IMG/VR virus record: IMGVR_UViG_2639763081_000004
Location: 3,368 to 67,367 of that record
Length of the DNA stretch: 64,000 nucleotides
DNA from: a virus
Taxonomy: Duplodnaviria; Caudoviricetes
Strand: one strand, 5' to 3'
Shown: positions 20,619 through 48,741 of the stretch, piece after piece
Layout of the letters: each line of letters starts with the position of its first letter
Position numbering within the stretch: the first letter of the stretch is position 1
The notes under the pieces: model-generated
Told to the model about the DNA's origin: nothing
Databases searched by the model: none
What the model saw: the letters and a program-made list of their open reading frames with translations, nothing else
Program-made: the position numbers and the translations under genes

Positions 20619-23600
20619 TCAAAGAGCGGTAGATCTGCGTTGGTAGCGAAGTGCACCAAAAACGGATAGAACCAGGCTCAGCAACGCAATGAGCCACGGA
20701 GCGGTTGCGGGAACTGGCGTAGCGGTGCTGGGTCCTGCCATTCTGACGACTACCCCCGGGTCCACAATTTCGCCATTCTCGATACCGTCAGCGTCGCCGG
20801 CTCCGCCATCGGTCAATGTCAGTGTCACTCGATTGCCGTTAATTTGAGCGCCAGCATACTTGGCCCAGTGCCCTGCTCCATTCTTCTTCCAATACTCAAG
20901 AGGCTGAGATGAAGAGGGGAGGCTAGCAATGTAGTCGATCTGCATCTGCACAGCTCCTCGGACGTTGCAGCCCGTCAGCTTGAAGGCAAACTGGGGTCCA
21001 GCTGCCTGCACTTCTGTGGGCAAGCCAGTGACCGCTCCCGCAGGGCTCGCCTGAGAACTCTCGAATGTGCAGCCAGGACCGCCTCCAGTGAGTTGTGCCT
21101 GCAATGCAGAGTCAACATGGCTGCGCCGCAGCGGAGTTATGGAGTTGCTGGGCTGTGACGGGAGGCTATTTTTACCTTCGGCATTCGTTGCTACAACGGT
21201 GAAGGTATATGCTGTTCCACCCGTCAGTCCATTAATGGTGCAAGTCAGTGCGGACGATGTGCTGCAGGTTTTGGAGGCGTCGCCGACAGCCGTGACGACA
21301 TAGTTGGTGATCGGTGCTCCTCCAGTGTTCAAAGGTGCAGTCCATCGCACTAGGCCCTGGTTTTCTGATGCCGTGGCAATTACGCTTGTGGGTGCATCAG
21401 GTACCGCGCCGGTAATCTGGAGGCTCTGGGTTTGCTCCGCCGCAGTTAACCAATTTGCATCGCCGCTCTGCTGTGCAACTAGGGTGCAAGTTCCAGCGGC
21501 AACAACGCCTACTGTTGTGCCAGATACCGAGCAAACTGACGGGGTGCGGCTGCTGTAACTGACCACCAGTCCAGACGTCGTGGTTGCTGTCGGGCTGATG
21601 ATGAAAGTGCCGTCTTTTACATATGGTTGATTTGCTTGCGTGTTAAAAGTTATGTTGTTCAGTCCTTTGACTACATTTAGGCTATATGAGACAGGCTGCG
21701 CCGGGAGCCATTGAGAGTCTCCGGGTTGTGTTGCAGTAACAGTGCAAACACCGGTCCCTGCTGCGTTGAATGTCAAGCGGTTGCCTTGTAAAGCGCATCC
21801 TGGCGAGGAACTAAATTGGACGTCCAGTCCAGATGTTGCCGTTGCAGTCAAGGTATGTGGGATTCCCACCTGCTGTTGTCCTGGCGACGAAAAGTTAATC
21901 GTCTGTGCAGTACGGGTTTCCTGCGGTGTGACGGTAACAACTCCTTTTGTATAGGCGGAGGAATTGCCAATTGAATTAACTGCAGCTATGGTAATGGAAT
22001 ATGTTACACCATTGGTGAGTCCCGAGATTGTGCAGGCCTGATCATTCCCTGTTGGGCTGCACGATCCTACTGCCGCACCGCCTTCCCACGCCGTTGCTGT
22101 GTATTGCACTGGGGAATTGCCGGGGTCACTTGGAACGATTGACCACTGAACTGAAGCACCTTGATTGACCGGCGTTGCAATAATGTTGTTGGCTGCCGCA
22201 GGAATATCTAGATCAAAGGATACATAGTTTAGAGGGATGATCGCATAGTTGCCGTTATGGTTTCCTGCAGCAGGAGCCAAAGAAAGACTCGCAGTCGCAC
22301 CAGGAGCTATTGAAAATCGATAATAGCTGCTTGTGCCAAGAGGTTTTAGAAGAACGGTTTCAGTGCCTCCCACCGAAAGAGCGATATCGCGCAGAGGGGA
22401 GGTGCCAAGTGCTGTATAAATGGAACGATAGTTCCAACTGGATGCGGTGTAGTTGCCGGTGAGTCCAAGAGTGGCAATTTTTGGACTATCGTCTATATAT
22501 GTAGATATCAAATAATCTCGTAGCCAGATATTTGCATCGGACCCGATAATGTTTTGGAGATTATTAATTCCTGTTGTGTTGCTGCTTACCAGGGATTTAA
22601 TGAAGCTGGTTTCGGTTGCAAGTGATGACCCAGAATATCGATCTGCTGCATACCTTAAAAAAGCCCACTGCGCACCTGAATTGGCAAGGGTTTTTACGCT
22701 ATTGTCTATGACTCCATATCTAGAAGGAGCCTGGAGCCAAGGGCGCCAGTTTCCATACAGTATGTTTTGATATGTATTAAAAGCTGCTACTCTGCGTGAC
22801 GCATTGGGTCCAGTGGTGAGGTTGGTTACGATAATGTTGTTAAACGGAGTGAGGCCTACGGAGTTGGCGTAGAAGGCTTGCTCAATTGCCATGCCGCCAA
22901 TAGCTTCATCCATCCACGGTTCTTCAAAAGGACTATTTGAAGATATTCTGTTGCTATCTAGAATTAAATGGGCAAGCTCTCTTGTGAAAGAGGCAGGCAA
23001 ACCAGACATTGTTGCGCTTACAGTCCTTACATTAGAATTGATTGCTCCCGTGGGATCGGGCGTAAGTGCATAGATTATTTCGCCAATATTCCCGGATGAA
23101 CACTCAGTTCTGCTCAACTTGTCTCTGGGCATGTACATGGAATAAGAACTGATGGGGCTGGCTGGAGCATCTAAGCGATTCATGCCCTGGGTAAAGAAAA
23201 TTACCACTTTTCCATTTCCATCTGTATCGGATGGCGCACCGAATTTATCAACTATAGTTGGATAAATCACGCTGTCCATGTTTACAAGCATATTCTGCCA
23301 GTTCGTGGCGTTTATGTCTAAAGAGTAGGCTGGGTTTTCTTTGTCTGTAACGACAATAATATTATTCCCTACCCAAGTTACTTCACCTTCAACGCTATAT
23401 CCCGGGTTACATTGATTGGATAGGTCGTTATTCAGTCTCCAAATGTCGCCCACTGTAGGCGTGGCGCCAAATGGAATGGAAGTTTGGGGGCTCAGTGCCG
23501 AGCTGGGGTCGATCGTGCCTCTCCGCGCAAGAAAATCGGACTTCATGAACTGCCGGCGAACAATTCTCGGATCATCCAAGGCGGTGCTTGTACTGGTGGT

Positions 23601-23861
23601 GTTACTCGGGGAAGCGGCGGTATTCCCCTCAATCCCTATTTGTAGAGAAATTGTTGCCCCTGGGGAAGTGTTCATAGGAACAACTAGGTATTCTGAGTCT
23701 GCAGATCCTGAGTTTTTAATACTGATCTGCTGTAGTGCACCTTCATTATTAAGAAGGCCATGGTGGGCCGCCAAAACAATGGATGGGAATATCTGAAGTG
23801 AAAAAAACAGCGCAAATTTGCTGAATTTACTCGACTGTTTATATTTGCCTATGATTTTCAT
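20619..23861 (-). CDS. Secreted surface protein: degenerate metallopeptidase-like domain, FN3/Ig-like domains, choice-of-anchor U-like domain, IPTL-CTERM-like tail
   Basis: Signal peptide; FN3 (PDAPTSV..WTAP..GGAPITNY..GLT..YTFTV.A.N); LTLTDGGAGDADG..NG.IVDPG; PVPATAPW+TM+RR; lower GC than flanks. Confidence 0.85.
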   Translation of the reverse strand: MKIIGKYKQSSKFSKFALFFSLQIFPSIVLAAHHGLLNNEGALQQISIKNSGSADSEYLVVPMNTSPGATISLQIGIEGNTAASPSNTTSTSTALDDPRIVRRQFMKSDFLARRGTIDPSSALSPQTSIPFGATPTVGDIWRLNNDLSNQCNPGYSVEGEVTWVGNNIIVVTDKENPAYSLDINATNWQNMLVNMDSVIYPTIVDKFGAPSDTDGNGKVVIFFTQGMNRLDAPASPISSYSMYMPRDKLSRTECSSGNIGEIIYALTPDPTGAINSNVRTVSATMSGLPASFTRELAHLILDSNRISSNSPFEEPWMDEAIGGMAIEQAFYANSVGLTPFNNIIVTNLTTGPNASRRVAAFNTYQNILYGNWRPWLQAPSRYGVIDNSVKTLANSGAQWAFLRYAADRYSGSSLATETSFIKSLVSSNTTGINNLQNIIGSDANIWLRDYLISTYIDDSPKIATLGLTGNYTASSWNYRSIYTALGTSPLRDIALSVGGTETVLLKPLGTSSYYRFSIAPGATASLSLAPAAGNHNGNYAIIPLNYVSFDLDIPAAANNIIATPVNQGASVQWSIVPSDPGNSPVQYTATAWEGGAAVGSCSPTGNDQACTISGLTNGVTYSITIAAVNSIGNSSAYTKGVVTVTPQETRTAQTINFSSPGQQQVGIPHTLTATATSGLDVQFSSSPGCALQGNRLTFNAAGTGVCTVTATQPGDSQWLPAQPVSYSLNVVKGLNNITFNTQANQPYVKDGTFIISPTATTTSGLVVSYSSRTPSVCSVSGTTVGVVAAGTCTLVAQQSGDANWLTAAEQTQSLQITGAVPDAPTSVIATASENQGLVRWTAPLNTGGAPITNYVVTAVGDASKTCSTSSALTCTINGLTGGTAYTFTVVATNAEGKNSLPSQPSNSITPLRRSHVDSALQAQLTGGGPGCTFESSQASPAGAVTGLPTEVQAAGPQFAFKLTGCNVRGAVQMQIDYIASLPSSSQPLEYWKKNGAGHWAKYAGAQINGNRVTLTLTDGGAGDADGIENGEIVDPGVVVRMAGPSTATPVPATAPWLIALLSLVLSVFGALRYQRRSTAL

Positions 23862-24121
23862 GTCGTATAAAGAAGTAAAACTCTAATTTGACGTATTCTT
23901 TGATTAATTGATAATGCAGTCTCAATTAATTTTTGACTCAACGGTTAACATGCTTACGATTGTTTGAAAGTGTATCTCTCGTTGCTTGGGGCTGCAGCAG
24001 TTTTTTTTGTTCTACAGCGCCAAGTTCTTTGAAAAGTAGCACTGTGTGGGGCGCAAGCTGCAACATGTGCAGTCGAGCGGTTTACGGAGGCCTGACCCTT
24101 TTATCTTCTTGTTGAACGAGG

Positions 24122-35923: not shown

Positions 35924-36050
35924 TATTGGTGCTTGTCAGAAGGTTGGAAAGCTGAGGCTGAACGCCCGAGCCGGCAGCCTAGAGACGTAGAGGTGAAAGT
36001 GTGATAGATGGGTTACATTCGGACACGTTGCAACTCTCTGGAACCTTCAA

Positions 36051-37169
36051 ATGCCCCTAGCCCTCATCAATGCCGTAATTCATGGGTTTGATAAAGAAAA
36101 ACATACAGAAATAGTTTCTAATGTTTTCAAAAGAGATAAAACTTTGGATGTGACTCAAGCGCCAGTTGTTGCATTGGTAGAAGGTGTGGCCAAATTGCTT
36201 GGTAAAAGGGAAAACAGCCTGGCTTGGGGGCGATTTAATAATGATAATTTTAGAGGGCCATTCCCCTCTAGTTTTGATGCTTGCGTCTTTTCCGAGCCAG
36301 ATTTGACGGATGAGAATGTTTTTTTGGCATTGACGCATACTGCCGTTGATGTAATTGTTGAAAAGGCTACGAAATCGAGACTGGCAACAGGGTCCAAAAT
36401 TCTATTTGGATATTACAAGTATGAAAATGGAAACCAGGGTTTGCTGATTGCAATGATTAAACAAAAAGGAGGAATTCGCCTAACGGAAGATTTTGTTCCG
36501 GTAGACATAGAGCAGGTGGATATGGCTAAATTGAGTCACGCATCGGAAATTAAAATTTCAGATTACTTGTTCTCAAAGTTGGATGAAGCAAAACAGTTGG
36601 AGCAGGGGGCGGAGCTTGAGGATTTGGAGCTGATTCCATACCTTTCATTTATATCGAGCAGAGATACCGACGATGCAGCCTCCTATTTTGTCGAGGCACT
36701 TGGATGTGCGTTGTACCGATCTTCAAAGAGATCAACATCATTGGTTATAAAGGCGGCATATGATTTTTGCGTGAATAATCCGGACCTAAAGGCGAACGCT
36801 TCAAAGGTAAAGGAAGTTGTTTGCAACTACCTAAAGGAGAAGATGGAGGCGGGGGAAGATGCGACTCTTGAGGAGGTTAAGCAAAAAGTGGAGAGAGCAT
36901 TTCCGGTAGAGTTATCTCGGCATTTTGATAGTTTTGTTGACACTCTTAATGGCGGTGATTATAAAATACCATCTAGCTTTCCGGTAAGTGAAGAGTCGCT
37001 GAAAAAATATTCGAGAATCGTTCTTAAAGACGACGATGTGGAAATTAAATTTGAAAAATCTGACTTTGGAACTACGGCAAATTCTAAAATCCAGTTTAAT
37101 AGAGCTGAACGATATCTGAAAATTAAGTTGTCAGATAAACAGATTGATGAGTTAGATAAGCATGTTTAA
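36051..37169 (+). CDS. NA37/YejK(NdpA)-like nucleoid-associated family protein
   Basis: NAVIHGFDK, ATGSKILFGYY, LLIAMIKQKGG, YLSFIS, ASYFVEALGC; AT-rich. Confidence 0.8.
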   Translation: MPLALINAVIHGFDKEKHTEIVSNVFKRDKTLDVTQAPVVALVEGVAKLLGKRENSLAWGRFNNDNFRGPFPSSFDACVFSEPDLTDENVFLALTHTAVDVIVEKATKSRLATGSKILFGYYKYENGNQGLLIAMIKQKGGIRLTEDFVPVDIEQVDMAKLSHASEIKISDYLFSKLDEAKQLEQGAELEDLELIPYLSFISSRDTDDAASYFVEALGCALYRSSKRSTSLVIKAAYDFCVNNPDLKANASKVKEVVCNYLKEKMEAGEDATLEEVKQKVERAFPVELSRHFDSFVDTLNGGDYKIPSSFPVSEESLKKYSRIVLKDDDVEIKFEKSDFGTTANSKIQFNRAERYLKIKLSDKQIDELDKHV

Positions 37170-38454
37170 ACAAGTCGTCGATTTGTATAGAGCCGTCGGA
37201 AAGCCGCCTTTTAAGCAGGGGCAGCGGCTCAATATCGACGTTGCGGAAACGCTAGTGCTCACCGAAGCGCTGGCGGCCTACCAAGAAATTGAGGAGAGTT
37301 TTAGCCCAATTGATCCAGTTGTACGCAATGGAAGAGTTGAGTTTGAATTTAAGATTCCTGGATCAGAGAGAGGTGCGTTTTTTGAAACCTTTGAGGAATT
37401 TGTTCAAGATACTCCGACTCTTGCTTTAGGGAAATTGAGGGGTAATTTCTACATAAGGAGTTTGGACTATTGGGACGGAGATGCTTTTGTTCCTGATCAG
37501 ATATTTAAACTTAAAAAAGTCGTCGATTTTGTATTTTGTTTGCGAGCGTTTGTTTCAATATCGATTGATCGTAATCAAGCTTATGAAGGTGATAAGTTAA
37601 TTTTTCTGAAGCCCTCGGATGGTAAATCTCCCCAAAAGGCGGCTATATTGAAAATTAACCTAAACGTGGACACTGTTGTTTCAGATATTCCAAGCTTTAA
37701 ATTGCTTGCTGCTCTTAAGAGTCAATCCGATGGTAAAACTAAACATCAAATTGAAGAGCGTGTGCTTTTAATGAATACAGCGATAGCTGAAATTATTGGT
37801 GAGTGCGACGATGATAATGTAGATTTCGATTATTTGGTAAAGAATTGGGGGCGAACTACAAAAAAATATCTACACGACCTTCATGCTTACGTTAGTTCAT
37901 TTTCTTTCGATGCTGCAAGAAAAAAGATTTCTGATGGATTGTTGGAGAGCACGACTAAGTTAAATAATGCGATTGGCGAGATAGGTACCAAACTTCTTGC
38001 CGTACCCGCATCGCTCGGTGTACTTATTGTCGTGAAAGATGCCTCAACCCTATCTGGATTTATAATGGGTATCGCTGGCGTTGTGTTTGCTAGTTTGATA
38101 ATATTAAGAACAATTAGGCACTACGAGAATCAAGTTGAGAATCTTCTAAATAGTTTTGAATTTAATTTGCAGGAAGCAGCGAAGCCAAAGAAGACATTCG
38201 GCAAGGCAATAAGGGATGAAATTGAAAGAATCTCTAGATTTAAGGATATTCAAAGGAGGGAAATATCACGAACATTTAGATTCTATAAATTAATTGCCAC
38301 GCTTCCCATAGCTGCTTGCATCTATTTTTGTGCTGCAGCCGTTTATCCTTGGATTAATCTTTATTTAAATTTGATTTTCCGCTGTGGACATGATGCTCTG
38401 TGGATGAAAATCATCGAAAGCACCTCGTTTCTCGCTCACATGTTGGTTGGTTGA
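37162..38454 (+). CDS. Hypothetical protein with C-terminal TM helices, coupled to NA37-like gene
   Basis: 8-bp overlap; hydrophobic KLLAVPASLGVLIVV, GFIMGIAGVVFASLIIL, LIATLPIAACIYFC. Confidence 0.85.
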   Translation: MFKQVVDLYRAVGKPPFKQGQRLNIDVAETLVLTEALAAYQEIEESFSPIDPVVRNGRVEFEFKIPGSERGAFFETFEEFVQDTPTLALGKLRGNFYIRSLDYWDGDAFVPDQIFKLKKVVDFVFCLRAFVSISIDRNQAYEGDKLIFLKPSDGKSPQKAAILKINLNVDTVVSDIPSFKLLAALKSQSDGKTKHQIEERVLLMNTAIAEIIGECDDDNVDFDYLVKNWGRTTKKYLHDLHAYVSSFSFDAARKKISDGLLESTTKLNNAIGEIGTKLLAVPASLGVLIVVKDASTLSGFIMGIAGVVFASLIILRTIRHYENQVENLLNSFEFNLQEAAKPKKTFGKAIRDEIERISRFKDIQRREISRTFRFYKLIATLPIAACIYFCAAAVYPWINLYLNLIFRCGHDALWMKIIESTSFLAHMLVG

Positions 38455-38553
38455 GGATGCCTGCTCGTCGCGCCGTGTGTGGAAGCCTAGTTTGAAACAT
38501 CTTGGCGACGGGCCTGCGGGCTCAAGCAAGAGTCGCCCGGCTTGAGCGCGCGT

Positions 38554-40563: not shown

Positions 40564-43500
40564 ATGAGTGAAATCGATGACATCCTCAAGGGCGCGCCGG
40601 CGCACAAGACAGACGCGCCCCCTAGTGCCGCGCTGGCCGGGCAGTCCGCCAAACCCACATCCGAGATCGACGACATCATGAAAGACGCGCCCACCACGGC
40701 GCGCGGCTTGAAAGGGTGGGCGCGGGATATTGGCGCAGGACTTGTGGACACGGCCATAGGCGTGCCAGAAGCGCTCGTTGGACTTGCCGACATTCCCACG
40801 GGTGGGCGGGTGGGGAAATTCCTCGAGAACAAGGACGGCGCCGTAGGGCTCAGGTTCAAGGATGCCCGGGAGGTAACAAGCGGCTGGTATTCGGACGCAA
40901 CCCAAGAAGCTGAGCGCAAGGTCCAGCAGGCTGATGGGATTGTCGACAAAACGGTAGCGGCGATTCAAAACCCCAGCGTTATTGCCAAAACCGTTGGAAC
41001 GTCGCTTGGCGCCATGGGGGCGGGCGGGGCGGCCGCGCGGGGTATCGCGGCCATTCCCAGGGTGGCTGCGATGGGTGCGCGCGGCGCGGCGGCAGCCGGC
41101 GCGCTGGGTGAGGGCGTCGTGGGCGCCGGCTCTGCTGCAGAGCAGATCCGCCAGCAAACAGATGATGGTCTGTTGACGCCTGGCCAGGTCGCGGCGGCGG
41201 CTGCCACGGGCGCGGCCACGGCGGGCTTCGGGTATGCCGGCGGGCGCGTGGCGCAGCGCCTGGGCATCGGTGATGCCGAGACCATGCTGGCCCAGGGCAA
41301 CAAGGGCATTGCCAAGCAGTTCGCCGATGACGCGGCCACAGCTGCGTCGAATCCACTGCTGCAACAGCGCGCGGTCAAGAGCATTCCGCGCCAGGTGATC
41401 GAGGGGGCCATCTCCGAAAGTTTCCTCGAGGAGCTGCCCCAGTCTGTGGCAGAGCAGATCTTCCAGAACCTGGCATTGGGAAAGGACTGGTCCCAGGATG
41501 TGGATACGGCAGTGGTGCTGGGCACGCTGTCGGGCGCGGCCATGGGCGGCGGCGCGGCGGGGTATCGGGCGGCGCGCGAGCCACGTGCGGGCGCGGCCGA
41601 GCCCGGCCAGGCCGTTGATGCGGCGGGCCAGCAGGATTTGCAGGCCGCTCCGGACATTGCAGGCACTCCGGACGTTGCTGCTGCTGCTCCAGCGCCGGGC
41701 GCGGCGGCTGAGCCGGATGCCCCTGTGCCGAATGCAGGCCTGGACGCCGTGCGCCGCGAATTCGAGGCCCGCATGTCGCAGCTGCAGCAGGAAGAGGGCG
41801 GCGAGCCCGAGGTGCCGCAGTCCGCTCCTCCTGATGGCGCGGCTGCCATGGCGCAGCTGCGCGCGGCAGAGCAGGCCCAGCGTGATGCGGAGGCCTCGGC
41901 CAATCGCGCAGTCGAATCCCCTGACAACGAGATCCTGCAATCCACGGGCGCGGCGCCCGTGCCGGCTTCGCGCGCCATGGGGTTGGATCCAGCTGCAGGC
42001 TCCCTGTCCGCAGCTGCTGCCCTGGCCGTGGATTCTGGCGCGGCCGCCCAGACCCAGCAGGCCAGTGCCATGGCCCAGGCCGCAGAGGAAGCCGCACGCG
42101 CGCCAGCCAAGAAGAATGCAACCGAGCGCCAGGTCACTGCAGACCCAGCCACAGGCGAGATTCAGGGCGGGGCCATGGCCACCTGGACAGATGAAGACCT
42201 GTCCAACGCATTCCGCTCTGCCCAGGCCAAGAACGTGCGCTTGCAGCTGGCGCGCGAGCTGTCGCGCCGCCGCGCCGAGCGTGACCAGCAGACCCCGGCC
42301 ACCGCGCCGGCCGCATCCGCAAATCCATCCACCCAGCAAGGAAGCATCGATGGCACACAAGCCGATCAAACCCAGCCGCCGCGCGCGGAATCTTCGCCGG
42401 CAGCAGGAGCGCAGGGAGCGCCGGTTGCACGTCCTGGCCCTGCGCAGGAGCTGACCAATGGCACCACCTCGTCTCAGCACGATGGCGCGCAAGCAGGTGC
42501 AGCGCCAGGCCCGCAGGCTCAAGCGCCAGTCCAAACCCCTGCCCAGCGCATCGACGCCGGACGCGCGGCCTGGGCCAGCATGCCCACCGCAGAGCGCAAG
42601 GCCCTGGCCCAGCGTGTGGGCGGTGTAAATGCCGCCCTGAAGGGAAGTCTCCATGGCGCGCGCTGGGAGAACCTGAATGCGGAGCTGCAGCTCCGTCTCG
42701 CAGACGCCATGCAACCGCAAGGAGCAACCAATGATTCAACCGCACCTGCAGTACGGGTGGCAGATGAACGCCCACCAGGCCCTGCGGCTGCTGCGGAGGC
42801 TGGGGGCGGTGAGCCGACAGGACGCGCGCCAGATGCGCAGTCTGCTGGGCCGCGAGGTGGCGTTGCCGGACAGCCTGCTGCCGGCGTGCAACCTGCTCTA
42901 CCTGGCCGAAGTGGCGCCAGCGAACAGACTGCCGCTGTAGCGCCTGCTGCTGCGCCAGCGCCCACGGCGGGCGAGCAGCAGGCCGTGGCCATCGCCAAGG
43001 AAGGGAACGACGCGCGGCGCGCCCAGCTGCTGGCCGCCAGCGAACGCTGGACCAGCATGCCGGCGGCCGAGCGCCAGGCGGTGGCCAAGGCCGCGAAGGG
43101 GTTGAACGCCCCGGCCCGCGCCGGGGCCCACACGCGGGCATGGGCTGACCTGGCGCCCAAGGTACGCGAGAAGCTGGCCGCCGCCATGCCCGATGCTGCT
43201 GCAGCACCTGCAGCACCTGCAGCACCTGCAGCACCTGCAGCACCTGCAGCACCTGCAGCACCTGCAGCACCTGCAGCACCTGCAGCACCTGCAGCACCTG
43301 CAGCACCTGCAGCACCTGCAGCACCTGCAGCACCTGCAGCACCTGCAGCACCTGCAGCACCTGCAGCACCTGCAGCACCTGCAGCACCTGCAGCACCTGC
43401 AGCACCTGCAGCACCTGCAGCACCTGCAGCACCTGCAGCACCTGCAGCACCTGCAGCACCTGCAGCACCTGCAGCACCTGCAGCACCTGCAGCACCTGCA

Positions 43501-46500
43501 GCACCTGCAGCACCTGCAGCACCTGCAGCACCTGCAGCACCTGCAGCCGTGGAAGCAGCCGCGCGGGAGGCGGCCACCAGCCAGGCCAACGACCTGCCCG
43601 AGCCGACCGATGCCCAGAAGGAGGCGGGCAACTACAAGAAGGGCCACGTCCGCCTGAACGGCCTGGACATCAGCATCGAGAACCCCGCCGGCAGCCGCCG
43701 CCGTCCAGAATGGCCGCCCCTGAAGAACCACTACGGCTACTTCAAGGGTTCCGTGGGCGCGGACAAGGACCATGTGGACGTGTTCATGACCGACCGCGCG
43801 AGCGATCCGGACCTGCCGGTGTTCGTCGTGGACCAGGTGAACCGTGATGGCTCATTCGATGAACACAAGGTGGTGCTGGGGGCGGTCGACGAGGCCGGTG
43901 CGCGGAGCACCTACCTGGGGAACTATGAGAAGGGGTGGACGGGCCTGGGCGGCATCACCCAGATGACGCAGGATGAATTCAGGTCCTGGCTGCGTGATCC
44001 GGCGAAGACGAAGAAGCCGGCCGGCACGCTGCTTGGCGCAGCGCCTGCGCCCACGAAGAAGCCGCGCGGCGTCCTGGCCAAGAAGGCCGCGGCGGAGGAG
44101 GCTGCGCGCGCCGACTACTTCACCCCGGGCAACATCGTGAAGGGCTACGGGGATAGCCATGTCCGCGTGGTCTCGTACACGCCGGCCAATGCCGATGGCG
44201 TGTGGAGCGTGACTGTGCGCCAGGTGGAGAAGCAGGGATCGGGCTGGCAGGATGTGCCGGGCGTGCGCGAGCGCACCCATGCCACGCAGCCCAGCGCACG
44301 CGAATTGAAGGCCGGGCCGGTGGAGCGCGCCGAGGAACTGCCGTTCCGTCGTGGCGAATCCGATGGCCAGGGCCTGACCGATGACCAGATGGCCAACCTG
44401 CTGCGCATCATGCGGCCCGAGCCGACCGCGTTTTCCGATGCTGCGCGCGCCCAGGCCGTGGGCCAGGTGCGCGAGACGGTGGATGCGATCCGCAAGGGCT
44501 GGAGCAACGGCCCCGAGGTGGTGGTGGCGTTCGACATGAACGACCCGGCCGTGCCGGATGCGGCGCGGCGCGCGGATTTGCGCCAGCGCAGTGGCGGGGC
44601 CTCCGGAGCGCCCGAGGGCTTCTACTGGCGCGGCAAGGCCTACCTGCTGGCCAGCAAGCTGAACACGCCCGCCGATGCGGCACGCGTGCTTCACCACGAG
44701 GTGCTGGGCCACCACGGCCTGCGCGGCATGTTCGGGCCGGAGCTGAACAAGATCCTCAACCAGGTGGCCACCATGCGCCATGCCGAGGTGGCGGCCAAGA
44801 TCAAGGAATATGGCCTGCGCGGCGTCACGGATCTGAGCCGGCGCCACGCCGCCGAGGAAGTGCTGGCCGAAATGGCTGAGAAGACGCCGCAGTTGCATTT
44901 CGTACAGCGTGCCGTGGCGGCCATCCGCAACTGGCTGCGGGCCAATGTGCCCGGGTTCGGGCGCCTGAAGCTGTCGGACGCCGACATCATCCAGGGCTAC
45001 ATCCTGCCGGCGCGCGATTTCGTGGAGCGCGGGCAGCGTGCCGCTACCGACCGCATCGAGCCTGTGTTCAGCCGGTCGGACTCGCCAGCCGCCACGCCGG
45101 ACGCCATCATCGGCAGCACGCTCGGCAGCGCATCGAAGCATCCCGACTACGCTGCGGCAAAGGCCGGGGATGTTGCGGCGGCCACGCGGCTGGCCGTGGA
45201 CCTCGTGACGCCTGAGATGGTGGCGAAGGTGGCGGATGCGCTGGGTGGTGCGCGGCCGCGTGTGCTGCCGGTGGCCGCCGAGGAGTCCAGCGGTCGCAAC
45301 AAGATCCCGCGCGCCGTGGCCGAAGTCTTGGCTGCACGCCTGGGCCTCGAAACGGCGACGGGCATCGTGCAGGCGAATCGCGCGCGGCGCACCGGCCTGG
45401 ATGGGCTGGACCGCATCTTTGCGCCTGTGGATTTCGCGGGCACCGTGGAGCCTGGCGACTACCTGCTGGTGGATGACACCCTTACGCAGGGCGGCACGTT
45501 CGCGGCCCTGGCCAGCCACATTCGTGAGGGCGGGGGCGACGTCGTGGGCGTTGTCGCGTTGACCGGCAAGCAGTACAGTGCAAAAATCCAGCCCTCTCCC
45601 GAAACCCTGGCCTCCCTCCGTCAAAAACATGGTGACCTCGAAGACCAATTCCGTGCAGCCACAGGCTACGGCTTCGACGCGCTCACCGAGTCGGAAGCCC
45701 GATACCTCGCGCGATTCGAGCCGGCTCAGCGACTCCGAGATCGAATTGCTGAAGAAGGACGACGCGGAAGCGAGCGCGCAGATCAAGGCAATCCTCGCCA
45801 AGGCGATGCAGGCGACGAACTGAGCTTCAGCCGCTCGCGGCTTTCGGAGATCAAGGACAGCGCTCTGGACCAGCTCCAGAAGACGATGTCCCACCCGGGC
45901 AAGGTCTCGCTCTGGGACAAGACCATCGGCACCATGCGCCACCTGGCCGAGCGTGCGCCAGCCTTCAAGCCCGTCTACGAGACCGCCCAGCGCAACATCG
46001 ATGACGTGTCCATGCTGGCCAACGATGCAGCCGACCGGGCGCCACGCCTGCTGCCGCGCGTGGACACCATCAGCGACCTCGTGGGCAAGAACCGCAAGAC
46101 GCCTGTTTCCGCCGCCGACAACAAGGCCGTGGCGAAGCCTCTCTTCGAGGGCACGCTGCTGTGGGGCAGGGACGTGGACGGCAAGGCTGTGCTGGTGGAC
46201 GAGCTGACCAAGAAGTACGGCAACCTGCCCGCCGACGACAAGGCCCAGCTGCTGCTGCGCGCCGGCCGCCTGGACGACCGCATGCTGCGCGCCTGGCGCG
46301 GGCGGCCGCTGGCCCAGTATGAAGCGCTGGTGAATTCTCGCTTCGAGAGCAAGATGCTCAAGGCCGGCGCGGTCTGGACGGATGCCGAGCTGCAGACCAT
46401 GTTCGGCGCCACGCCCAACCAGATCGCCCTGTACCGTGAAGCCCGCGCGGCCATTGACCGCTCCATCGACATGACGGCCCGCGCGGACATGATGCGCGCG

Positions 46501-48741
46501 CTGGGCGACGAGTACGCCGGCCTGCGCGACATGGTGCTGGACGCGCCCAAGCTGTCCGATGCCCTGGAGCTGCTGACCACCACGCTGCAGGAGGATGCCA
46601 AGGCCAAGCCGGACCTGGCCGAACGGCTGCTGCAGTTGAACAACATGGTGGTGGACCGGGCAGCCACGGCCAAGGATCTGCAGGACGGCGGGTATGCGCC
46701 GCTGTCGCGTTTCGGCCGGTACACGCTGGACGTGGTGGATCAGGAGGGCAACCGCCAGTACTTCGGCATGTACGAGACCATGAAGGACGCCAACCTGGCC
46801 AAGATCCAGATGGCCCAGGCCTTCCCCGGTGCGGTGATCACGCAGGGCACCATGAGCCAGCAGTCCTTCAAGCTGTTCGCGGGCATCACGCCCGAGACGC
46901 TGGAGATCTTCAAGGACATGGTCGTGGGCAAGGAAGCCGACGCGGCCACGCGCAAGGTGTTCGATGAATACCTGAAGCTGACCAAGAACAACCACAGCGC
47001 CTTGAAGCGCCTGATCCAGCGCAAGGGCATCGAGGGCTACAGCCAGGACGTGGGCCGCGTGGTGGCCAACTTCATCTACAGCAATGCGCGCCAGGGCGCG
47101 GCGGGCCTGAACGCGGGCACGATGGATCGCGCGATCAACGACATCCCGAAGGAACAGGGCGAACTGAAGGACCTGGCCATGGGCCTGCGCAGCTACATCC
47201 GCGATCCCCAGGAAGAGGGCCAAGCCGTGCGCGGCATGCTGTTCGCGCAGTACCTGGGCGGCTCACTGGCCTCGGCCGCCGTGAACATGACCCAGCCCTT
47301 TGCGGTGACGCTGCCTTGGCTCAGCCAGTTCGGGGGCATGCGCGCGGCCAGCGGCCAAATGACACGGGCACTGAACGATATGCGTCGATCCTGGATGGAC
47401 AAGGGCTTTCGCTATGAGACGGACTTGGCCCATGCCCTGCAAACTGCCGAAGACGATGGCGTGGTCTCGCCGCAGGAAGTGCACCAGCTCATGGCCCAGG
47501 CGCGCGGCGCGGGCGGCCTGCGCTCTGGCGACGGCACGCGGTCCGGCGATGCGCGCGCGGCGGCCGGCAATGCCTGGGAACGCGCCAAGGTGGCCTGGGG
47601 TCAGCCCTTCGCCCTGGCCGAGCAGTTCAACCGGCGCTCCACCTTCATCGCGGCCTTCCGTATCGCCAAGGCCCAGGGGATGGATGACCCGGGCGCCTTC
47701 GCGCGCAAGGCCGTGCTGGAGACCCAGTTCGTCTACTCCAAGGCGGCGAAGCCTGTCTGGGCGCGCGGCGCCGTGGGCGGCACGCTGTTCACATTCAAGA
47801 CCTATTCCGTCAGCTACCTGGAACTGATGCAGCGCATGTGGAAGCAGGGCGGCCCGGAGGGCAAGCGTGCCGTGGGCTGGGCCCTGGTCATGCTGCTGCT
47901 GATGGGCGGCGCCGGCGGCGTGCCCTTCATGGAGGACGCCGAGGACCTGATCGACGGCGTGGGCCAGATGATGGGCTACAACCTCAGTTCCAAGCAGTGG
48001 CGCAAGGAGGCGCTGGCCGGCATCGTGGGCAAGGAGCTGGCCGAGTTTATGGAGCAGGGCATCTCTGGTCTGCCAGGCGCTCCCATCGACGTGTCCGGGC
48101 GCCTGGGCATGGGCAACCTGCTGCCCGGCACAGGCCTGCTGCTGACCAAGCAGAGCCGCGAGCGGGATCTGCTGGAGGTTGTGGGGCCGGCGGGCGATCT
48201 GGTGTCCCGCGGCTTCGCGGCAGGACGCGAACTGGTGGGTGGGGTGATGAATCTGGACCCGTCTGCAGCGGGCCGCGCTGCGCTGGAAGTGTCTCCCACG
48301 GCCGTGCGCAATGCGTTCAAGGGCGCGGACATGGCCGCCAGCGGCATGTACAAGGACACCAAGGGCTACAAGGTGATCGACACCACGCTGGCCGAGGCGG
48401 TGGCCAAGGCTGTCGGCTTCCAGCCCAAGAGCGTGGCCGAGGTGCAGGAAGCCAACAGCTTCATGCAGCGGTCCAAGAGCTTCTACAGCCAGACCAGCAG
48501 CGAGATCAAGGCGCAGTGGGCGGATGCGCTGTTCCGCAAGGACGAGGGCGCCCTGGCGCGCGTGCGCGAACGGCTGGCCGATTGGAACAAGAACAATCCG
48601 GAGCAGCCCATCGTCGTGAAGATGCCGGACATCTGGAGGAAGGTTCGCGAGATGGGCAAGGACCGGACAGACCGCATTGCGGACAACTCGCCCAAGGCGC
48701 TTCGTCAGCAGATGCGGGAGATGGCAGCGGAGGCGCGGTAG
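40564..48741 (+). CDS. Giant polyvalent internal virion protein (inorganic pyrophosphatase-like, zincin, PRTase-like, PLxRFG domains)
   Basis: NYKKGH..ISIENP.GS, YGY..G..GADKDHVDVF, FDEHK; HHEVLGHHGL..EEVLAE; LLVDDTLTQGGT; YAPLSRFG. Confidence 0.9.
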   Translation: MSEIDDILKGAPAHKTDAPPSAALAGQSAKPTSEIDDIMKDAPTTARGLKGWARDIGAGLVDTAIGVPEALVGLADIPTGGRVGKFLENKDGAVGLRFKDAREVTSGWYSDATQEAERKVQQADGIVDKTVAAIQNPSVIAKTVGTSLGAMGAGGAAARGIAAIPRVAAMGARGAAAAGALGEGVVGAGSAAEQIRQQTDDGLLTPGQVAAAAATGAATAGFGYAGGRVAQRLGIGDAETMLAQGNKGIAKQFADDAATAASNPLLQQRAVKSIPRQVIEGAISESFLEELPQSVAEQIFQNLALGKDWSQDVDTAVVLGTLSGAAMGGGAAGYRAAREPRAGAAEPGQAVDAAGQQDLQAAPDIAGTPDVAAAAPAPGAAAEPDAPVPNAGLDAVRREFEARMSQLQQEEGGEPEVPQSAPPDGAAAMAQLRAAEQAQRDAEASANRAVESPDNEILQSTGAAPVPASRAMGLDPAAGSLSAAAALAVDSGAAAQTQQASAMAQAAEEAARAPAKKNATERQVTADPATGEIQGGAMATWTDEDLSNAFRSAQAKNVRLQLARELSRRRAERDQQTPATAPAASANPSTQQGSIDGTQADQTQPPRAESSPAAGAQGAPVARPGPAQELTNGTTSSQHDGAQAGAAPGPQAQAPVQTPAQRIDAGRAAWASMPTAERKALAQRVGGVNAALKGSLHGARWENLNAELQLRLADAMQPQGATNDSTAPAVRVADERPPGPAAAAEAGGGEPTGRAPDAQSAGPRGGVAGQPAAGVQPALPGRSGASEQTAAVAPAAAPAPTAGEQQAVAIAKEGNDARRAQLLAASERWTSMPAAERQAVAKAAKGLNAPARAGAHTRAWADLAPKVREKLAAAMPDAAAAPAAPAAPAAPAAPAAPAAPAAPAAPAAPAAPAAPAAPAAPAAPAAPAAPAAPAAPAAPAAPAAPAAPAAPAAPAAPAAPAAPAAPAAPAAPAAPAAPAAPAAPAAPAAPAAPAAVEAAAREAATSQANDLPEPTDAQKEAGNYKKGHVRLNGLDISIENPAGSRRRPEWPPLKNHYGYFKGSVGADKDHVDVFMTDRASDPDLPVFVVDQVNRDGSFDEHKVVLGAVDEAGARSTYLGNYEKGWTGLGGITQMTQDEFRSWLRDPAKTKKPAGTLLGAAPAPTKKPRGVLAKKAAAEEAARADYFTPGNIVKGYGDSHVRVVSYTPANADGVWSVTVRQVEKQGSGWQDVPGVRERTHATQPSARELKAGPVERAEELPFRRGESDGQGLTDDQMANLLRIMRPEPTAFSDAARAQAVGQVRETVDAIRKGWSNGPEVVVAFDMNDPAVPDAARRADLRQRSGGASGAPEGFYWRGKAYLLASKLNTPADAARVLHHEVLGHHGLRGMFGPELNKILNQVATMRHAEVAAKIKEYGLRGVTDLSRRHAAEEVLAEMAEKTPQLHFVQRAVAAIRNWLRANVPGFGRLKLSDADIIQGYILPARDFVERGQRAATDRIEPVFSRSDSPAATPDAIIGSTLGSASKHPDYAAAKAGDVAAATRLAVDLVTPEMVAKVADALGGARPRVLPVAAEESSGRNKIPRAVAEVLAARLGLETATGIVQANRARRTGLDGLDRIFAPVDFAGTVEPGDYLLVDDTLTQGGTFAALASHIREGGGDVVGVVALTGKQYSAKIQPSPETLASLRQKHGDLEDQFRAATGYGFDALTESEARYLARFEPAQRLRDRIAEEGRRGSERADQGNPRQGDAGDELSFSRSRLSEIKDSALDQLQKTMSHPGKVSLWDKTIGTMRHLAERAPAFKPVYETAQRNIDDVSMLANDAADRAPRLLPRVDTISDLVGKNRKTPVSAADNKAVAKPLFEGTLLWGRDVDGKAVLVDELTKKYGNLPADDKAQLLLRAGRLDDRMLRAWRGRPLAQYEALVNSRFESKMLKAGAVWTDAELQTMFGATPNQIALYREARAAIDRSIDMTARADMMRALGDEYAGLRDMVLDAPKLSDALELLTTTLQEDAKAKPDLAERLLQLNNMVVDRAATAKDLQDGGYAPLSRFGRYTLDVVDQEGNRQYFGMYETMKDANLAKIQMAQAFPGAVITQGTMSQQSFKLFAGITPETLEIFKDMVVGKEADAATRKVFDEYLKLTKNNHSALKRLIQRKGIEGYSQDVGRVVANFIYSNARQGAAGLNAGTMDRAINDIPKEQGELKDLAMGLRSYIRDPQEEGQAVRGMLFAQYLGGSLASAAVNMTQPFAVTLPWLSQFGGMRAASGQMTRALNDMRRSWMDKGFRYETDLAHALQTAEDDGVVSPQEVHQLMAQARGAGGLRSGDGTRSGDARAAAGNAWERAKVAWGQPFALAEQFNRRSTFIAAFRIAKAQGMDDPGAFARKAVLETQFVYSKAAKPVWARGAVGGTLFTFKTYSVSYLELMQRMWKQGGPEGKRAVGWALVMLLLMGGAGGVPFMEDAEDLIDGVGQMMGYNLSSKQWRKEALAGIVGKELAEFMEQGISGLPGAPIDVSGRLGMGNLLPGTGLLLTKQSRERDLLEVVGPAGDLVSRGFAAGRELVGGVMNLDPSAAGRAALEVSPTAVRNAFKGADMAASGMYKDTKGYKVIDTTLAEAVAKAVGFQPKSVAEVQEANSFMQRSKSFYSQTSSEIKAQWADALFRKDEGALARVRERLADWNKNNPEQPIVVKMPDIWRKVREMGKDRTDRIADNSPKALRQQMREMAAEAR
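42731..42940 (+). CDS. Nested +1-frame small ORF inside giant gene
   Basis: AAGGAG 6 nt before ATG; 69-aa globular-looking sequence while host frame is low-complexity linker. Confidence 0.5.
   Translation: MIQPHLQYGWQMNAHQALRLLRRLGAVSRQDARQMRSLLGREVALPDSLLPACNLLYLAEVAPANRLPL
43201..43542 (+). repeat. Perfect tandem repeat (GCAGCACCT)x38 encoding (Ala-Ala-Pro)38
   Basis: 342 bp of identical 9-mers, in frame. Confidence 0.97.

What the first reader, a model, noticed from the sequence alone, without database searches (positions are those of the whole stretch)
42338..42940. Train of three SD-bearing small ORFs nested in the +1 frame of the giant polyvalent gene
Seen: in a low-complexity linker of the 2725-aa ORF, three consecutive +1-frame ORFs each have a well-spaced SD: 42350-42454 (AAGGA; MAHKPIKPSRRARNLRRQQERRERRLHVLALRRS, very Arg-rich), 42458-42628 (AGGAG; 56 aa, basic) and 42731-42940 (AAGGAG; MIQPHLQYGWQMNAHQALRLL..., 69 aa). 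The first two are 3 nt apart like an operon. Inference: hidden overprinted genes such as nucleic-acid-binding core peptides, chaperones or inhibitors of the giant protein's enzymatic domains; standard annotation would miss them.
Basis: partly seen in the sequence, partly recalled or inferred. Interest (0 to 1): 0.75.

Follow-up and report, generated by a model that had tools for sequence, protein, structure and literature searches.

The report
Hidden genes inside giant phage gene
Three small genes are written in a second reading frame inside a flexible linker of a giant phage virion-protein gene, and evolution has preserved them, one of them even inside the giant RNA-polymerase gene of an unrelated-looking phage, so ordinary annotation is missing a whole family of phage proteins.

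Summary
In this 67-69% GC gene open alternative frames are cheap, so openness proves nothing; conservation does.

- In 23 close homologues, all three ATGs and all three stops are kept in 24 of 24 rows.
- Over the 8.2-kb giant gene, only these two stretches lose third-position variation.
- ORF3: +1-frame pN/pS is 0.17 against 2.81 for the giant frame.
- ORF3 belongs to an unannotated family of about 70 aa (33 representatives). All 14 divergent loci hold it +1 to a long ORF. So do three 53% GC contigs, where the host gene carries N4-type virion RNA polymerase domains.
- ORF1 and ORF2 have Arg-rich N-terminal cores, SDs and a stop-3-nt-ATG junction kept in 10 lineages, with ATG/GTG/TTG start switching. 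The C-terminal half of ORF2 is not selected in +1.

Verdict: these are real overprinted genes (ORF3 about 0.9, ORF1 and ORF2 about 0.7). Function is unknown. ORF3 models as a four-helix protein with no known relatives, and nucleic-acid binding by ORF1/ORF2 is inference. Translation was not tested.

The parts
40564..48741 (+). Host gene: giant 2725-aa virion-module polyvalent protein (frame 0)
   Evidence: ORF, translation. Pfam InPase PF18823 at aa 1016-1143. PHROG hits include DarB-like antirestriction and virion structural families. It lies downstream of terminase, portal and major head genes.
42338..42342 (+). SD of ORF1 (AAGGA), 7 nt before the ATG; built on a rare GGA Gly codon of frame 0
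   Evidence: Identical in 24 of 24 rows. A GGAG/AGGA-type motif sits before the start in 10 of 10 lineages. GGA accounts for 17 of 254 Gly codons in the giant gene.
42350..42454 (+). ORF1, +1 frame, 34 aa, pI 12, Arg-rich; conserved core K-P-x-K-P-S-K then a basic run
   Evidence: ATG and TGA kept in 24 of 24 rows. +1 pN/pS 0.44 against 1.13 for frame 0. The core is conserved in 8 lineages, and over the 10 lineages compared the start is ATG (6), GTG (2) or TTG (2). Conservation of the +1 peptide begins at the SD; upstream it has stops in 2 of 21 distinct rows.
42446..42450 (+). SD of ORF2 (AGGAG) inside the end of ORF1
   Evidence: AGGAG in 16 rows and AGGGG in 8 of 24 rows. It is weaker or absent in some distant lineages, where the stop-3-nt-ATG junction remains.
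42458..42628 (+). ORF2, +1 frame, 56 aa; only the N-terminal core of about 25 codons (42458 to about 42535) is conserved as protein
   Evidence: ATG kept in 24 of 24 rows while the base before it varies A/G/T. The core is conserved in 10 lineages with synonymous Arg (CGN/AGA) and Leu (CTN/TTG) switches while frame 0 varies. The stop is kept at the same codon as TAA (14 rows) or TGA (10 rows). ORF2b +1 pN/pS is 0.92.
42719..42724 (+). SD of ORF3 (AAGGAG), 6 nt before the ATG
   Evidence: AAGGAG in 19 rows and GGGAG in 5 of 24 rows. A (A)GGAG-type motif (GAGGG in L069) lies upstream of the start in the divergent loci that have one and in L120/L121.
42731..42940 (+). ORF3, +1 frame, 69 aa, pI 10.7; member of an unannotated family of about 65-80 aa; modelled as four helices
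   Evidence: +1 pN/pS 0.17 against 2.81 for frame 0, with no +1 stop in 21 of 21 rows. Variable columns by frame-0 codon position are 33/14/10. Own-frame GC1/2/3 is 0.75/0.43/0.90. Family. Nested +1 in long ORFs. Model pLDDT 77.4.

Best explanation
The three ORFs are real protein-coding genes overprinted in the +1 frame on disordered, weakly constrained linker segments of a giant virion-module polyvalent protein gene. The gene belongs to a Delftia-type temperate phage.

Inferred mechanism. Ribosomes start internally on the giant gene's mRNA at each ORF's own SD and start codon. ORF2 is additionally coupled to termination of ORF1 through a stop-3-nt-ATG junction.

- ORF3 gives a folded, basic, four-helix protein of about 70 aa. 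Its family is otherwise unannotated and, wherever context could be seen, always lies +1 inside the linker after the N-terminal domain of giant polyvalent or virion-RNA-polymerase-type proteins of the kind known to be ejected.
- ORF1 and ORF2 give very basic peptides (pI about 12) whose conserved part is an Arg/Lys-rich N-terminal stretch of about 20-25 residues. This most likely binds nucleic acid.

Shown: sequence anatomy and purifying selection on the +1 frames. Inferred: internal initiation, coupling, late co-expression with the giant protein, and every functional assignment.
For: Close homologues (23 loci, 24 rows, 21 distinct):
- All three ATGs and all three stops are kept. The ORF2 stop is kept at the same codon as TAA or TGA. 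The bases before the ATGs vary while the AT of the frame-0 NAT codon does not.
- Frame-0 third positions are variable at 10 of 75 sites (ORF3) and 11 of 71 (ORF1 plus the ORF2 N-half), against 79 of 124 in the flanks. Fisher p is 1e-12 and 4e-11.
- In 30-codon windows over the whole gene, pi3 is below 0.071 only within 42319-42543 and 42724-42948, and 0.099 or more everywhere else.
- NG86 for ORF3: +1 pN/pS 0.17, frame 0 2.81. The antisense frame that shares the wobble has stops in 21 of 21 rows. For ORF1: 0.44 against 1.13.

Deep conservation of ORF3:
- 16 protein clusters at 60-97% identity. 33 representatives at E<=1e-3, all but two of them 62-98 aa.
- In 14 of 14 divergent loci (54-61% identity) ORF3 lies +1 to a long ORF. 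11 have ATG and 1 has GTG, each preceded by an SD-like motif.
- It also lies +1 inside a 2693-codon ORF with N4-type vRNAP Pfam domains in 53% GC contigs. There the +1 frame is otherwise closed about every 13-15 codons. The ORF3 stretch is an ungapped island with 15% differences, between gapped flanks with more than 40%, and its differences fall 11/6/20 by +1 codon position.
- Identity to the window is 0.36-0.61 in +1 against 0.20-0.38 in frame 0.

ORF1 and ORF2:
- The cores, SDs and the stop-3-nt-ATG junction are conserved in 8-10 lineages. Starts switch between ATG, GTG and TTG, and Arg and Leu codons switch synonymously.
- +1 identity is 0.63 and 0.49 against 0.46 and 0.34 for frame 0.
Against: - No direct evidence of translation or of the peptides.
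- For the N-half of ORF2 in close homologues, frame 0 looks more constrained than +1 (pN/pS 0.38 against 0.72). For the C-half, +1 looks neutral (0.92).
- The codon-position shift for ORF1 plus ORF2a alone is only marginal (chi-square p=0.066).
- An Arg-rich +1 peptide is the expected by-product of an Ala/Gln/Pro/Gly-rich frame 0 at high GC.
- NG86 is not designed for overlapping genes, and its values are saturated in the distant comparisons (pS 0.47-0.61).
- ORF3 is missing from related complete or near-complete records that carry ORF1/ORF2 (L033, L060) and from coliphage N4. It is therefore not needed by every giant protein of this kind.
- No family, fold or complex evidence for any function.
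Confidence: 0.85

Rival explanations
1. The constraint acts on nucleic acid, not on +1 proteins. Possible forms are an mRNA structure, a DNA site (packaging, origin or promoter), or internal SD-like sequences that pause ribosomes translating the giant protein.
For: In ORF1 and the ORF2 N-half all three codon positions are about equally conserved (pi 0.02-0.09). A nucleotide-level element would produce that pattern. Conserved SD motifs could in principle act on elongating ribosomes.
Against: - The ORF3 differences are concentrated at the +1 wobble (33/14/10 variable columns).
- Distant lineages change the DNA heavily but keep the +1 peptides through synonymous Arg and Leu codon switches.
- Start codons switch among ATG, GTG and TTG at the same position.
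- The RNA of 42330-42560 folds no better than shuffles (z=+1.45; 190 of 200 shuffles fold at least as well).
- No Rfam match inside 42338-42940, and no sigma-70-like promoter in 41800-43400.
Confidence: 0.06
2. Chance ORFs. Open alternative frames are common at high GC, and the low diversity reflects a recently shared recombinant segment rather than selection.
For: The +1 frame of this gene has open spans of up to 351 codons. The close homologues are mosaic: two clades differ sharply at 42551-42730.
Against: - A sweep lowers all codon positions in proportion. Here the periodicity moves to the +1 frame.
- The neighbouring linker 42244-42337 has similar composition, yet it is highly variable and its +1 pN/pS is 0.95, with +1 stops in 2 of 21 rows.
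- The ORFs persist down to 33-60% identity, in a 53% GC background, and in giant genes with no BLASTP-detectable similarity to this one.
Confidence: 0.03
3. ORF3 is not, or not only, an independent gene. It would be an alternative C-terminus reached by a frame change: programmed +1 frameshifting, or slippage at a G-run. The product would be the N-terminal domain of the giant protein ending in the ORF3 sequence.
For: There are two natural forms in which the upstream part of the giant gene runs into the ORF3 frame and ends at the ORF3 stop. One is L100. The other is a 776-aa Delftia acidovorans protein whose last 43 residues equal ORF3 residues 27-69, with its junction at a run of G.
Against: - In 12 of the 14 divergent loci and in all 24 close rows, ORF3 keeps its own start with an SD.
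- The +1 frame is closed by stops shortly upstream: 3 codons in L112 and 19 codons in the window.
- The +1 sequence upstream of the start is not conserved.
- The two fused forms also break the giant gene, as ordinary frameshift mutations or homopolymer sequencing errors would.
Confidence: 0.06

Closest known systems
Out-of-frame genes embedded in a longer phage gene: lambda Rz1 inside Rz (+1 frame), phiX174 E inside D and B inside A (recalled textbook cases; overprinting as reviewed in PMC8227390, seen only as search listing and abstract)
   Same: An ORF lying wholly inside another gene in a different frame, with its own SD and start, under purifying selection, and missed by ordinary gene callers.
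   Different: - There are three ORFs in a row, two of them coupled by stop-3-nt-ATG.
- The host is a disordered linker of a 2725-aa multi-domain virion protein.
- The products are unrelated to spanins or lysis proteins. ORF3 has no N-terminal lipobox or signal sequence and only one conserved Cys, at position 53.
- ORF3 keeps its nested position while the surrounding giant gene changes its domain content.
Polyvalent proteins of phages (Iyer et al. 2017, PMC5512222; passages read) and the N4 virion RNA polymerase with its roughly 100-residue NTD-RNAP linker (PMC13434306; passages read)
   Same: The host genes belong here. The window's gene has InPase. Other ORF3 hosts have ART-PolyVal/LPD39, LPD5/LPD1/LPD37 or N4-type vRNAP domains. 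ORF3 overlies a linker after the N-terminal domain, like the flexible NTD-RNAP linker described for N4.
   Different: Neither paper describes a second-frame gene. The word 'overlapping' occurs 0 times in PMC5512222, and in PMC13434306 only for image frames. Coliphage N4 itself has no ORF3 match.
Arginine-rich-motif peptides and small basic genome-binding virion proteins (lambda N amino-terminal ARM, HIV Rev ARM, phiX174 protein J; all recalled, none fetched)
   Same: ORF1 and the ORF2 core are short, with pI about 12 and 9-13 Arg+Lys in 26-34 residues. That composition is typical of peptides that bind RNA or condense DNA.
   Different: No sequence relationship was tested or found. No RNA or DNA target is known. 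The composition is also what an Ala/Gln/Pro-rich frame 0 yields in +1 at high GC.

Membership tests
Overprinted (out-of-frame, fully nested) phage genes | ORF lies wholly inside a longer gene, same strand, different frame | tested here: met
   All three ORFs are +1 inside 40564..48741. The same holds for ORF3 homologues in 14 of 14 divergent loci and in L120-L122.
Overprinted (out-of-frame, fully nested) phage genes | Own translation start signals | tested here: met
   SD 6-7 nt before each ATG. Conserved in 24 of 24 rows for the ATGs and across lineages, with ATG/GTG/TTG switching for ORF1. This is sequence evidence only.
Overprinted (out-of-frame, fully nested) phage genes | Purifying selection on the nested frame | tested here: met
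   ORF3 0.17 and ORF1 0.44 in +1, against 2.81 and 1.13 in frame 0. The ORF2 core is met only in the distant comparison. ORF2 C-half: not met (0.92).
Overprinted (out-of-frame, fully nested) phage genes | Protein product demonstrated | not testable with these tools
   No ribosome profiling or proteomics was available.
Embedded o-spanin (Rz1-like) | N-terminal signal sequence with lipobox Cys | tested here: not met
   ORF3 starts M-I-Q-P-H and its only conserved Cys is residue 53. ORF1 has no Cys, ORF2 has a single Cys in its non-conserved C-terminal tail, and neither has a hydrophobic N-terminus. Judged by inspection; the criteria are recalled.
Helix-turn-helix DNA-binding proteins | Recognisable HTH fold or family match | tested here: inconclusive
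   The four-helix model has pLDDT 77.4. No Foldseek hit at E<=0.001 in PDB or BFVD. No Pfam match. The Atlas structural neighbours include a few HTH-bearing clusters, but all are under that tool's bar.
Arginine-rich-motif RNA-binding peptides | Short Arg-rich segment that binds a defined RNA hairpin | not tested
   Only the composition was measured. No target was sought beyond the negative fold and Rfam checks of the locus itself.
Phage polyvalent proteins (host gene) | Very large multi-domain protein carrying polyvalent-type domains, encoded in the virion module | tested here: met
   InPase PF18823, E=5e-43. PHROG DarB-like and virion families. Terminase, portal and major head genes lie upstream.
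Any curated protein family for ORF1-3 (Pfam, PHROGs, NCBIfam, PADLOC, PDB sequences) | Significant profile match | tested here: not met
   No family for the window's ORFs. Of the 33 ORF3-family members scanned, only single chance or chimeric hits. PDB profile search best E=0.95.

The most novel reading that the evidence does not exclude
ORF3 marks a widespread, so far invisible gene family that lives only as a second-frame passenger in the linker behind the N-terminal domain of giant polyvalent and N4-type virion-RNA-polymerase proteins. Recalled knowledge says that domain inserts into membranes and that these proteins are ejected. The ORF3 product would work together with the giant protein, for example as a packaging or ejection escort, or as a co-delivered early effector. 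ORF1 and ORF2 would be a second, independent nested module of nucleic-acid-binding peptides. Giant ejected phage proteins would then be dual-coding loci as a rule, not an exception.
Probability: 0.3. Interest if true: 0.88.

Novelty: new variant of a known kind. Interest (0 to 1): 0.78.

Why it matters
- Overlapping genes are a classic feature of tiny phages. Here a train of them sits in a 60-70 kb tailed phage, inside one of its largest genes. One of them recurs in giant genes that share no detectable sequence with this one, including an N4-type virion RNA polymerase gene.
- Family members that reached protein databases came mostly from short contigs: 6 of the 10 representatives looked up lie on contigs under 2 kb. 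On long contigs the giant ORF probably hides them from gene callers.
- If the products are made, studies of polyvalent proteins and virion RNA polymerases have overlooked a partner encoded in the same DNA. Mutations or truncations engineered in those linkers would hit two genes at once.
- The case gives a clean, testable system for how disordered linkers serve as nurseries or shelters for second-frame genes. Start codons can be removed without changing the giant protein.

Tried and rejected
- DNA similarity of 41800-43400 to 50,697 phage records and 72,556 plasmids: no match.
- tblastn of four ORF3-family members against the phage records: no match.
- A profile search of 401 genomes of the class of a Delftia host found the family only in the centre genome: 1 of 401, meaning not found in those searched.
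- Context for the most distant family members could not be obtained. Viral-contig scans with P0040, P0039 and P0020 gave no locus. Alignments A1 and A5 were too loose for the scanner. Whether those members are nested is therefore unknown.
- Pfam, PHROGs, NCBIfam, PADLOC, PDB sequence profile, ESM Atlas, and Foldseek against PDB and BFVD gave nothing usable for ORF1-3.
- Rfam, RNA folding and promoter scans of the locus were negative. The sub-threshold Rfam rows all lie in the Pro-Ala-Ala repeat at 43096-43400.
- Antisense reading of the ORF3 stretch was rejected: stops in 21 of 21 rows.
- The longer ORF3 start at 42677 was rejected. The +1 peptide between 42677 and 42730 is not conserved, and homologues have stops closer to the start.
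- The 318-codon +1 ORF from 41498 was rejected: its ATG is kept in 7 of 21 rows, and the +1 frame upstream of ORF1 is variable with stops.
- Sequencing runs: 24 runs were listed, all kept as contigs, 3 on record as RNA. None was laid, because contigs cannot show initiation or translation, so this is not evidence either way.
- Complex prediction was not used: there was no partner with a defensible prior.
- Supplementary files of the papers were not seen.
Full report
WHAT IS THERE

The window is part of a 67,367-base virus record with 62-69% GC over most of its length.

The ORF 40564..48741 (2725 aa) follows genes for terminase, portal and major head protein. It carries a polyvalent-type InPase domain (PF18823, E=5e-43) and matches PHROGs of giant virion and DarB-like proteins.

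Residues of about 560-1000 are Ala/Pro/Gly/Gln-rich linkers interrupted by a duplicated domain of about 55 aa.

- ORF1: 42350-42454. AAGGA lies 7 nt upstream.
- ORF2: 42458-42628. AGGAG lies 7 nt upstream, and the ATG is 3 nt after the ORF1 stop.
- ORF3: 42731-42940. AAGGAG lies 6 nt upstream.

Openness is not evidence at this GC content. The +1 frame of this gene has spans of up to 351 codons, and ORF1 is the tail of one of them.

CLOSE HOMOLOGUES

A scan of viral contigs returned 65 loci with relatives of the giant protein.

Which rows were used:
- 23 loci match residues 561-830 at 76-94% identity. These were codon-aligned with the window: 24 rows, 21 distinct.
- L009 and L013 have an interrupted giant ORF and were left out of that alignment. 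By tblastn they hold all three ORFs.
- The remaining loci are too distant or lack the region.

Starts, SDs and stops:
- All three ATGs and all three stops are present in 24 of 24 rows.
- The first base of the frame-0 codon that supplies the A-T of the ATG changes (AAT, GAT, TAT at ORF2; AAT, GAT at ORF3). The T at its third position never changes, although C-ending Asn and Asp codons are preferred in this gene.
- SD1 and SD3 are built on GGA, which accounts for 17 of 254 Gly codons.
- The ORF2 stop sits at the same codon as TAA in 14 rows and TGA in 10 rows, in two clades whose frame-0 sequence differs there.

The +1 peptides are nearly invariant from the SD onward. The +1 sequence upstream of ORF1 is variable and has stops in some rows.

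SELECTION

Variable columns by frame-0 codon position:
- SD3+ORF3: 33/14/10.
- The four flanking segments pooled: 46/42/79. Chi-square p=3e-5.
- ORF1 plus the ORF2 N-half: 17/9/11 (p=0.066).

Frame-0 third positions are variable at 13% (ORF3) and 15% (ORF1 plus ORF2 N-half) of sites, against 64% in the flanks (Fisher p=1e-12 and 4e-11).

A 30-codon sliding window was run over the whole gene with 22 rows:
- Third-position diversity is at most 0.070 only within 42319-42543 and 42724-42948.
- Every other window is 0.099 or more.
- Elsewhere, position 1 exceeds position 3 in only three windows, all poorly aligned or very divergent: 40564-40653, 43624-43713 and 45559-45648.

Nei-Gojobori estimates, pN/pS:

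| Segment | +1 frame | Frame 0 |
|---|---|---|
| ORF3 | 0.17 | 2.81 |
| ORF1 | 0.44 | 1.13 |
| ORF2 N-half | 0.72 | 0.38 |
| ORF2 C-half | 0.92 | 0.30 |
| Control linker 42244-42337 | 0.95 | 0.46 |

- The antisense frame that shares ORF3's wobble has stops in 21 of 21 rows.
- ORF3 in its own frame has GC1/2/3 of 0.75/0.43/0.90, a typical high-GC gene profile.

DEEP CONSERVATION OF ORF3

The family:
- ORF3 has 16 database relatives at 60-97% identity, among them chimeric or partial entries of 46-77 aa.
- A profile search finds 33 representatives at E<=1e-3, 11 of them at E<=1e-10. All but two are 62-98 aa.
- An alignment of 21 members has 14 invariant columns.
- Named hosts are Delftia acidovorans, D. 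tsuruhatensis and a Comamonas species.

Fourteen divergent loci at 54-61% identity were examined:
- In all 14 the homologue lies +1 to a long ORF that spans it. That ORF is 879-2549 codons in 13 loci, and 145 codons on a 1.4-kb contig.
- 11 start with ATG and one with GTG, each preceded by an SD-like motif.
- One locus is cut by the contig end.
- In L100 the start is missing and the upstream 1035-codon part of the giant gene runs in the ORF3 frame.

A member at 33% identity (P0024) led to three contigs of 53-54% GC:
- There it lies +1 inside ORFs of 2038 and 2693 codons. The latter carries four N4-type virion RNA polymerase Pfam domains.
- In those genes the +1 frame is closed at a median of 13-15 codons. 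The ORF3 span is the longest or third-longest +1 opening.
- Between L120 and L121 the ORF3 stretch is an ungapped island with 37 differences in 243 nt, distributed 11/6/20 by +1 codon position. The flanks have more than 120 differences per 300 nt plus gaps.

Across lineages, +1 identity to the window is 0.36-0.61 against 0.20-0.38 for frame 0.

The host proteins vary:
- L121 and L117 show no BLASTP similarity to the window's protein. L098 and L115 share only single regions.
- Their Pfam domains are vRNAP, ART-PolyVal/LPD39 and LPD5/LPD1/LPD37.
- An N-terminal domain of about 300 aa is shared with L115, L117 and L069, but was not detected in L098 or L121.

ORF3 is absent from the records of L033 and L060 and from coliphage N4.

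DEEP CONSERVATION OF ORF1 AND ORF2

Ten lineages were compared (the window, L033, L038, L060, L069, L098, L099, L100, L115, L117). In these the +1 frame shows the following:
- An SD-like GGAG or AGGA motif, then a start: ATG in 6, GTG in 2, TTG in 2.
- Three codons later, in the 8 lineages that keep it, a K-P-x-K-P-S-K core followed by a basic run.
- A stop, then 3 nt (0 nt in L060), then ATG and a conserved core containing P-R-L-R-T followed by an Arg/Lys/Gln run.

In that second core, Arg codons switch between CGN and AGA and Leu codons between CTN and TTG, while the frame-0 residues differ.

Mean pairwise identity is 0.63 (ORF1 core) and 0.49 (ORF2 core) in +1, against 0.46 and 0.34 in frame 0. 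The pN/pS values are 0.60 and 0.64 against 0.89 and 0.94. The values are saturated, and two rows are offset by one codon in the ORF2 set.

ORF lengths behind the cores vary: ORF1 30-45 aa, ORF2 26-56 aa. Only the N-terminal cores therefore look functional.

ORF1/ORF2 occur without ORF3 (L033, L038, L060), and ORF3 occurs without them (L120-L122). These are two independent nested modules.

RIVALS

- A nucleotide-level element: not supported (wobble pattern and synonymous switches as above).
- Chance plus a recombination sweep: contradicted by the periodicity shift, by the control linker, and by conservation in other backgrounds.
- A frame-change product: suggested by L100 and by a 776-aa Delftia protein that ends in ORF3 residues 27-69, with its junction at a G-run. 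The conserved SD and start, and the nearby upstream +1 stops, argue for independent initiation. Both fused forms also break the giant gene. I keep this rival at about 6%.

HOW IT LIKELY WORKS

Inferred mechanism: the giant gene's late mRNA is read in two frames. Ribosomes load at the internal SDs, and ORF2 is also served by ribosomes terminating at ORF1.

ORF3:
- It models as a four-helix protein (pLDDT 77.4, pTM 0.63).
- It has no structural or sequence relatives of known function.
- It sits exclusively in linkers of virion-module giant proteins of the ejected kind. This resembles the roughly 100-residue NTD-RNAP linker of N4 vRNAP (PMC13434306, passages). My preferred guess is therefore an accessory that acts with the giant protein in packaging or ejection, or early after delivery.
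- Its patchy distribution also fits an accessory or counter-defence role. I put no more than about 0.3 on any one of these.

ORF1 and the ORF2 core:
- Both have pI about 12. They most likely bind nucleic acid.
- This rests on composition alone, and that composition is partly forced by frame 0.

WHAT IS KNOWN

Embedded out-of-frame genes are a known kind in phages (recalled: Rz1 in Rz, phiX174 E in D).

I found no report of second-frame genes in polyvalent-protein or vRNAP genes:
- Full-text searches (listings and abstracts only).
- The polyvalent-protein paper has no occurrence of 'overlapping'.
- The N4 paper uses the word only for image frames.
- Supplements were not seen.

The family has no Pfam, PHROG, NCBIfam or PADLOC model.

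I rate this a new variant of a known kind.

LIMITS

- There is no expression or protein evidence.
- NG86 is approximate for overlapping frames.
- Context is unknown for the most distant family members.

Noticed in passing
window 43190-43660: A long in-frame Pro-Ala-Ala repeat in the giant ORF. Alignment depth falls to 2-3 of 22 rows there, so its length varies between homologues. The sub-threshold Rfam rows all fall at 43096-43400, in and just before this repeat.
   Followed up: no
window 36001-38500: A 40% GC island in a 62-69% GC record. It holds ORFs 36051..37169 (PHROG 3767, nucleoid-associated protein) and 37162..38454 (phrog_5023, unknown). It looks like an acquired cassette between the head module and the giant gene.
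   Followed up: partly
window 20619-24000: A second low-GC stretch (45.6% at 22001-24000). It coincides with a 1080-aa ORF on the minus strand, 20619..23861.
   Followed up: no
window 42545-42715 and 43010-43180 (giant aa about 662-716 and 816-872): Frame 0 carries a duplicated domain of about 55 aa with a shared W-x-S/R-M/L-P-x-x-E/Q-R motif. It is the constrained frame-0 part between ORF2 and ORF3. In one clade the first copy is replaced by a divergent version.
   Followed up: partly
L069, L098, L100, L115, L117 upstream of their ORF1 (for example L115 about 2600-2680): A further conserved +1-frame stretch (P-x-P-W-K-P-L-G-L type). It closes at a stop just upstream of the ORF1 start: 3 nt in L098, L115 and L117, further in L069 and L100. 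This may be a fourth nested ORF in those lineages. It is not present as such in the window.
   Followed up: no
L100:3922-4195, and protein P0055 (776 aa, Delftia acidovorans): Two independent forms in which the giant gene is split by a frame change inside the ORF3 overlap. The N-terminal part then ends with the ORF3 C-terminus. The P0055 junction lies at a run of G (window equivalent about 42800-42806). Mutation, sequencing error and phase-variable slippage were not distinguished.
   Followed up: partly
L120-L122 (viral contigs, 53-54% GC): N4-type virion RNA polymerase genes (four vRNAP Pfam domains in L121) that carry an ORF3-family gene in the +1 frame ahead of the polymerase domains. Coliphage N4 itself has none.
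   Followed up: yes
window 41498-42349: A long +1 ORF (318 codons) with an AAGGA-ATG start at 41498. Its ATG is kept in only 7 of 21 homologues and the stretch shows normal frame-0 periodicity, so it is probably a chance opening.
   Followed up: yes
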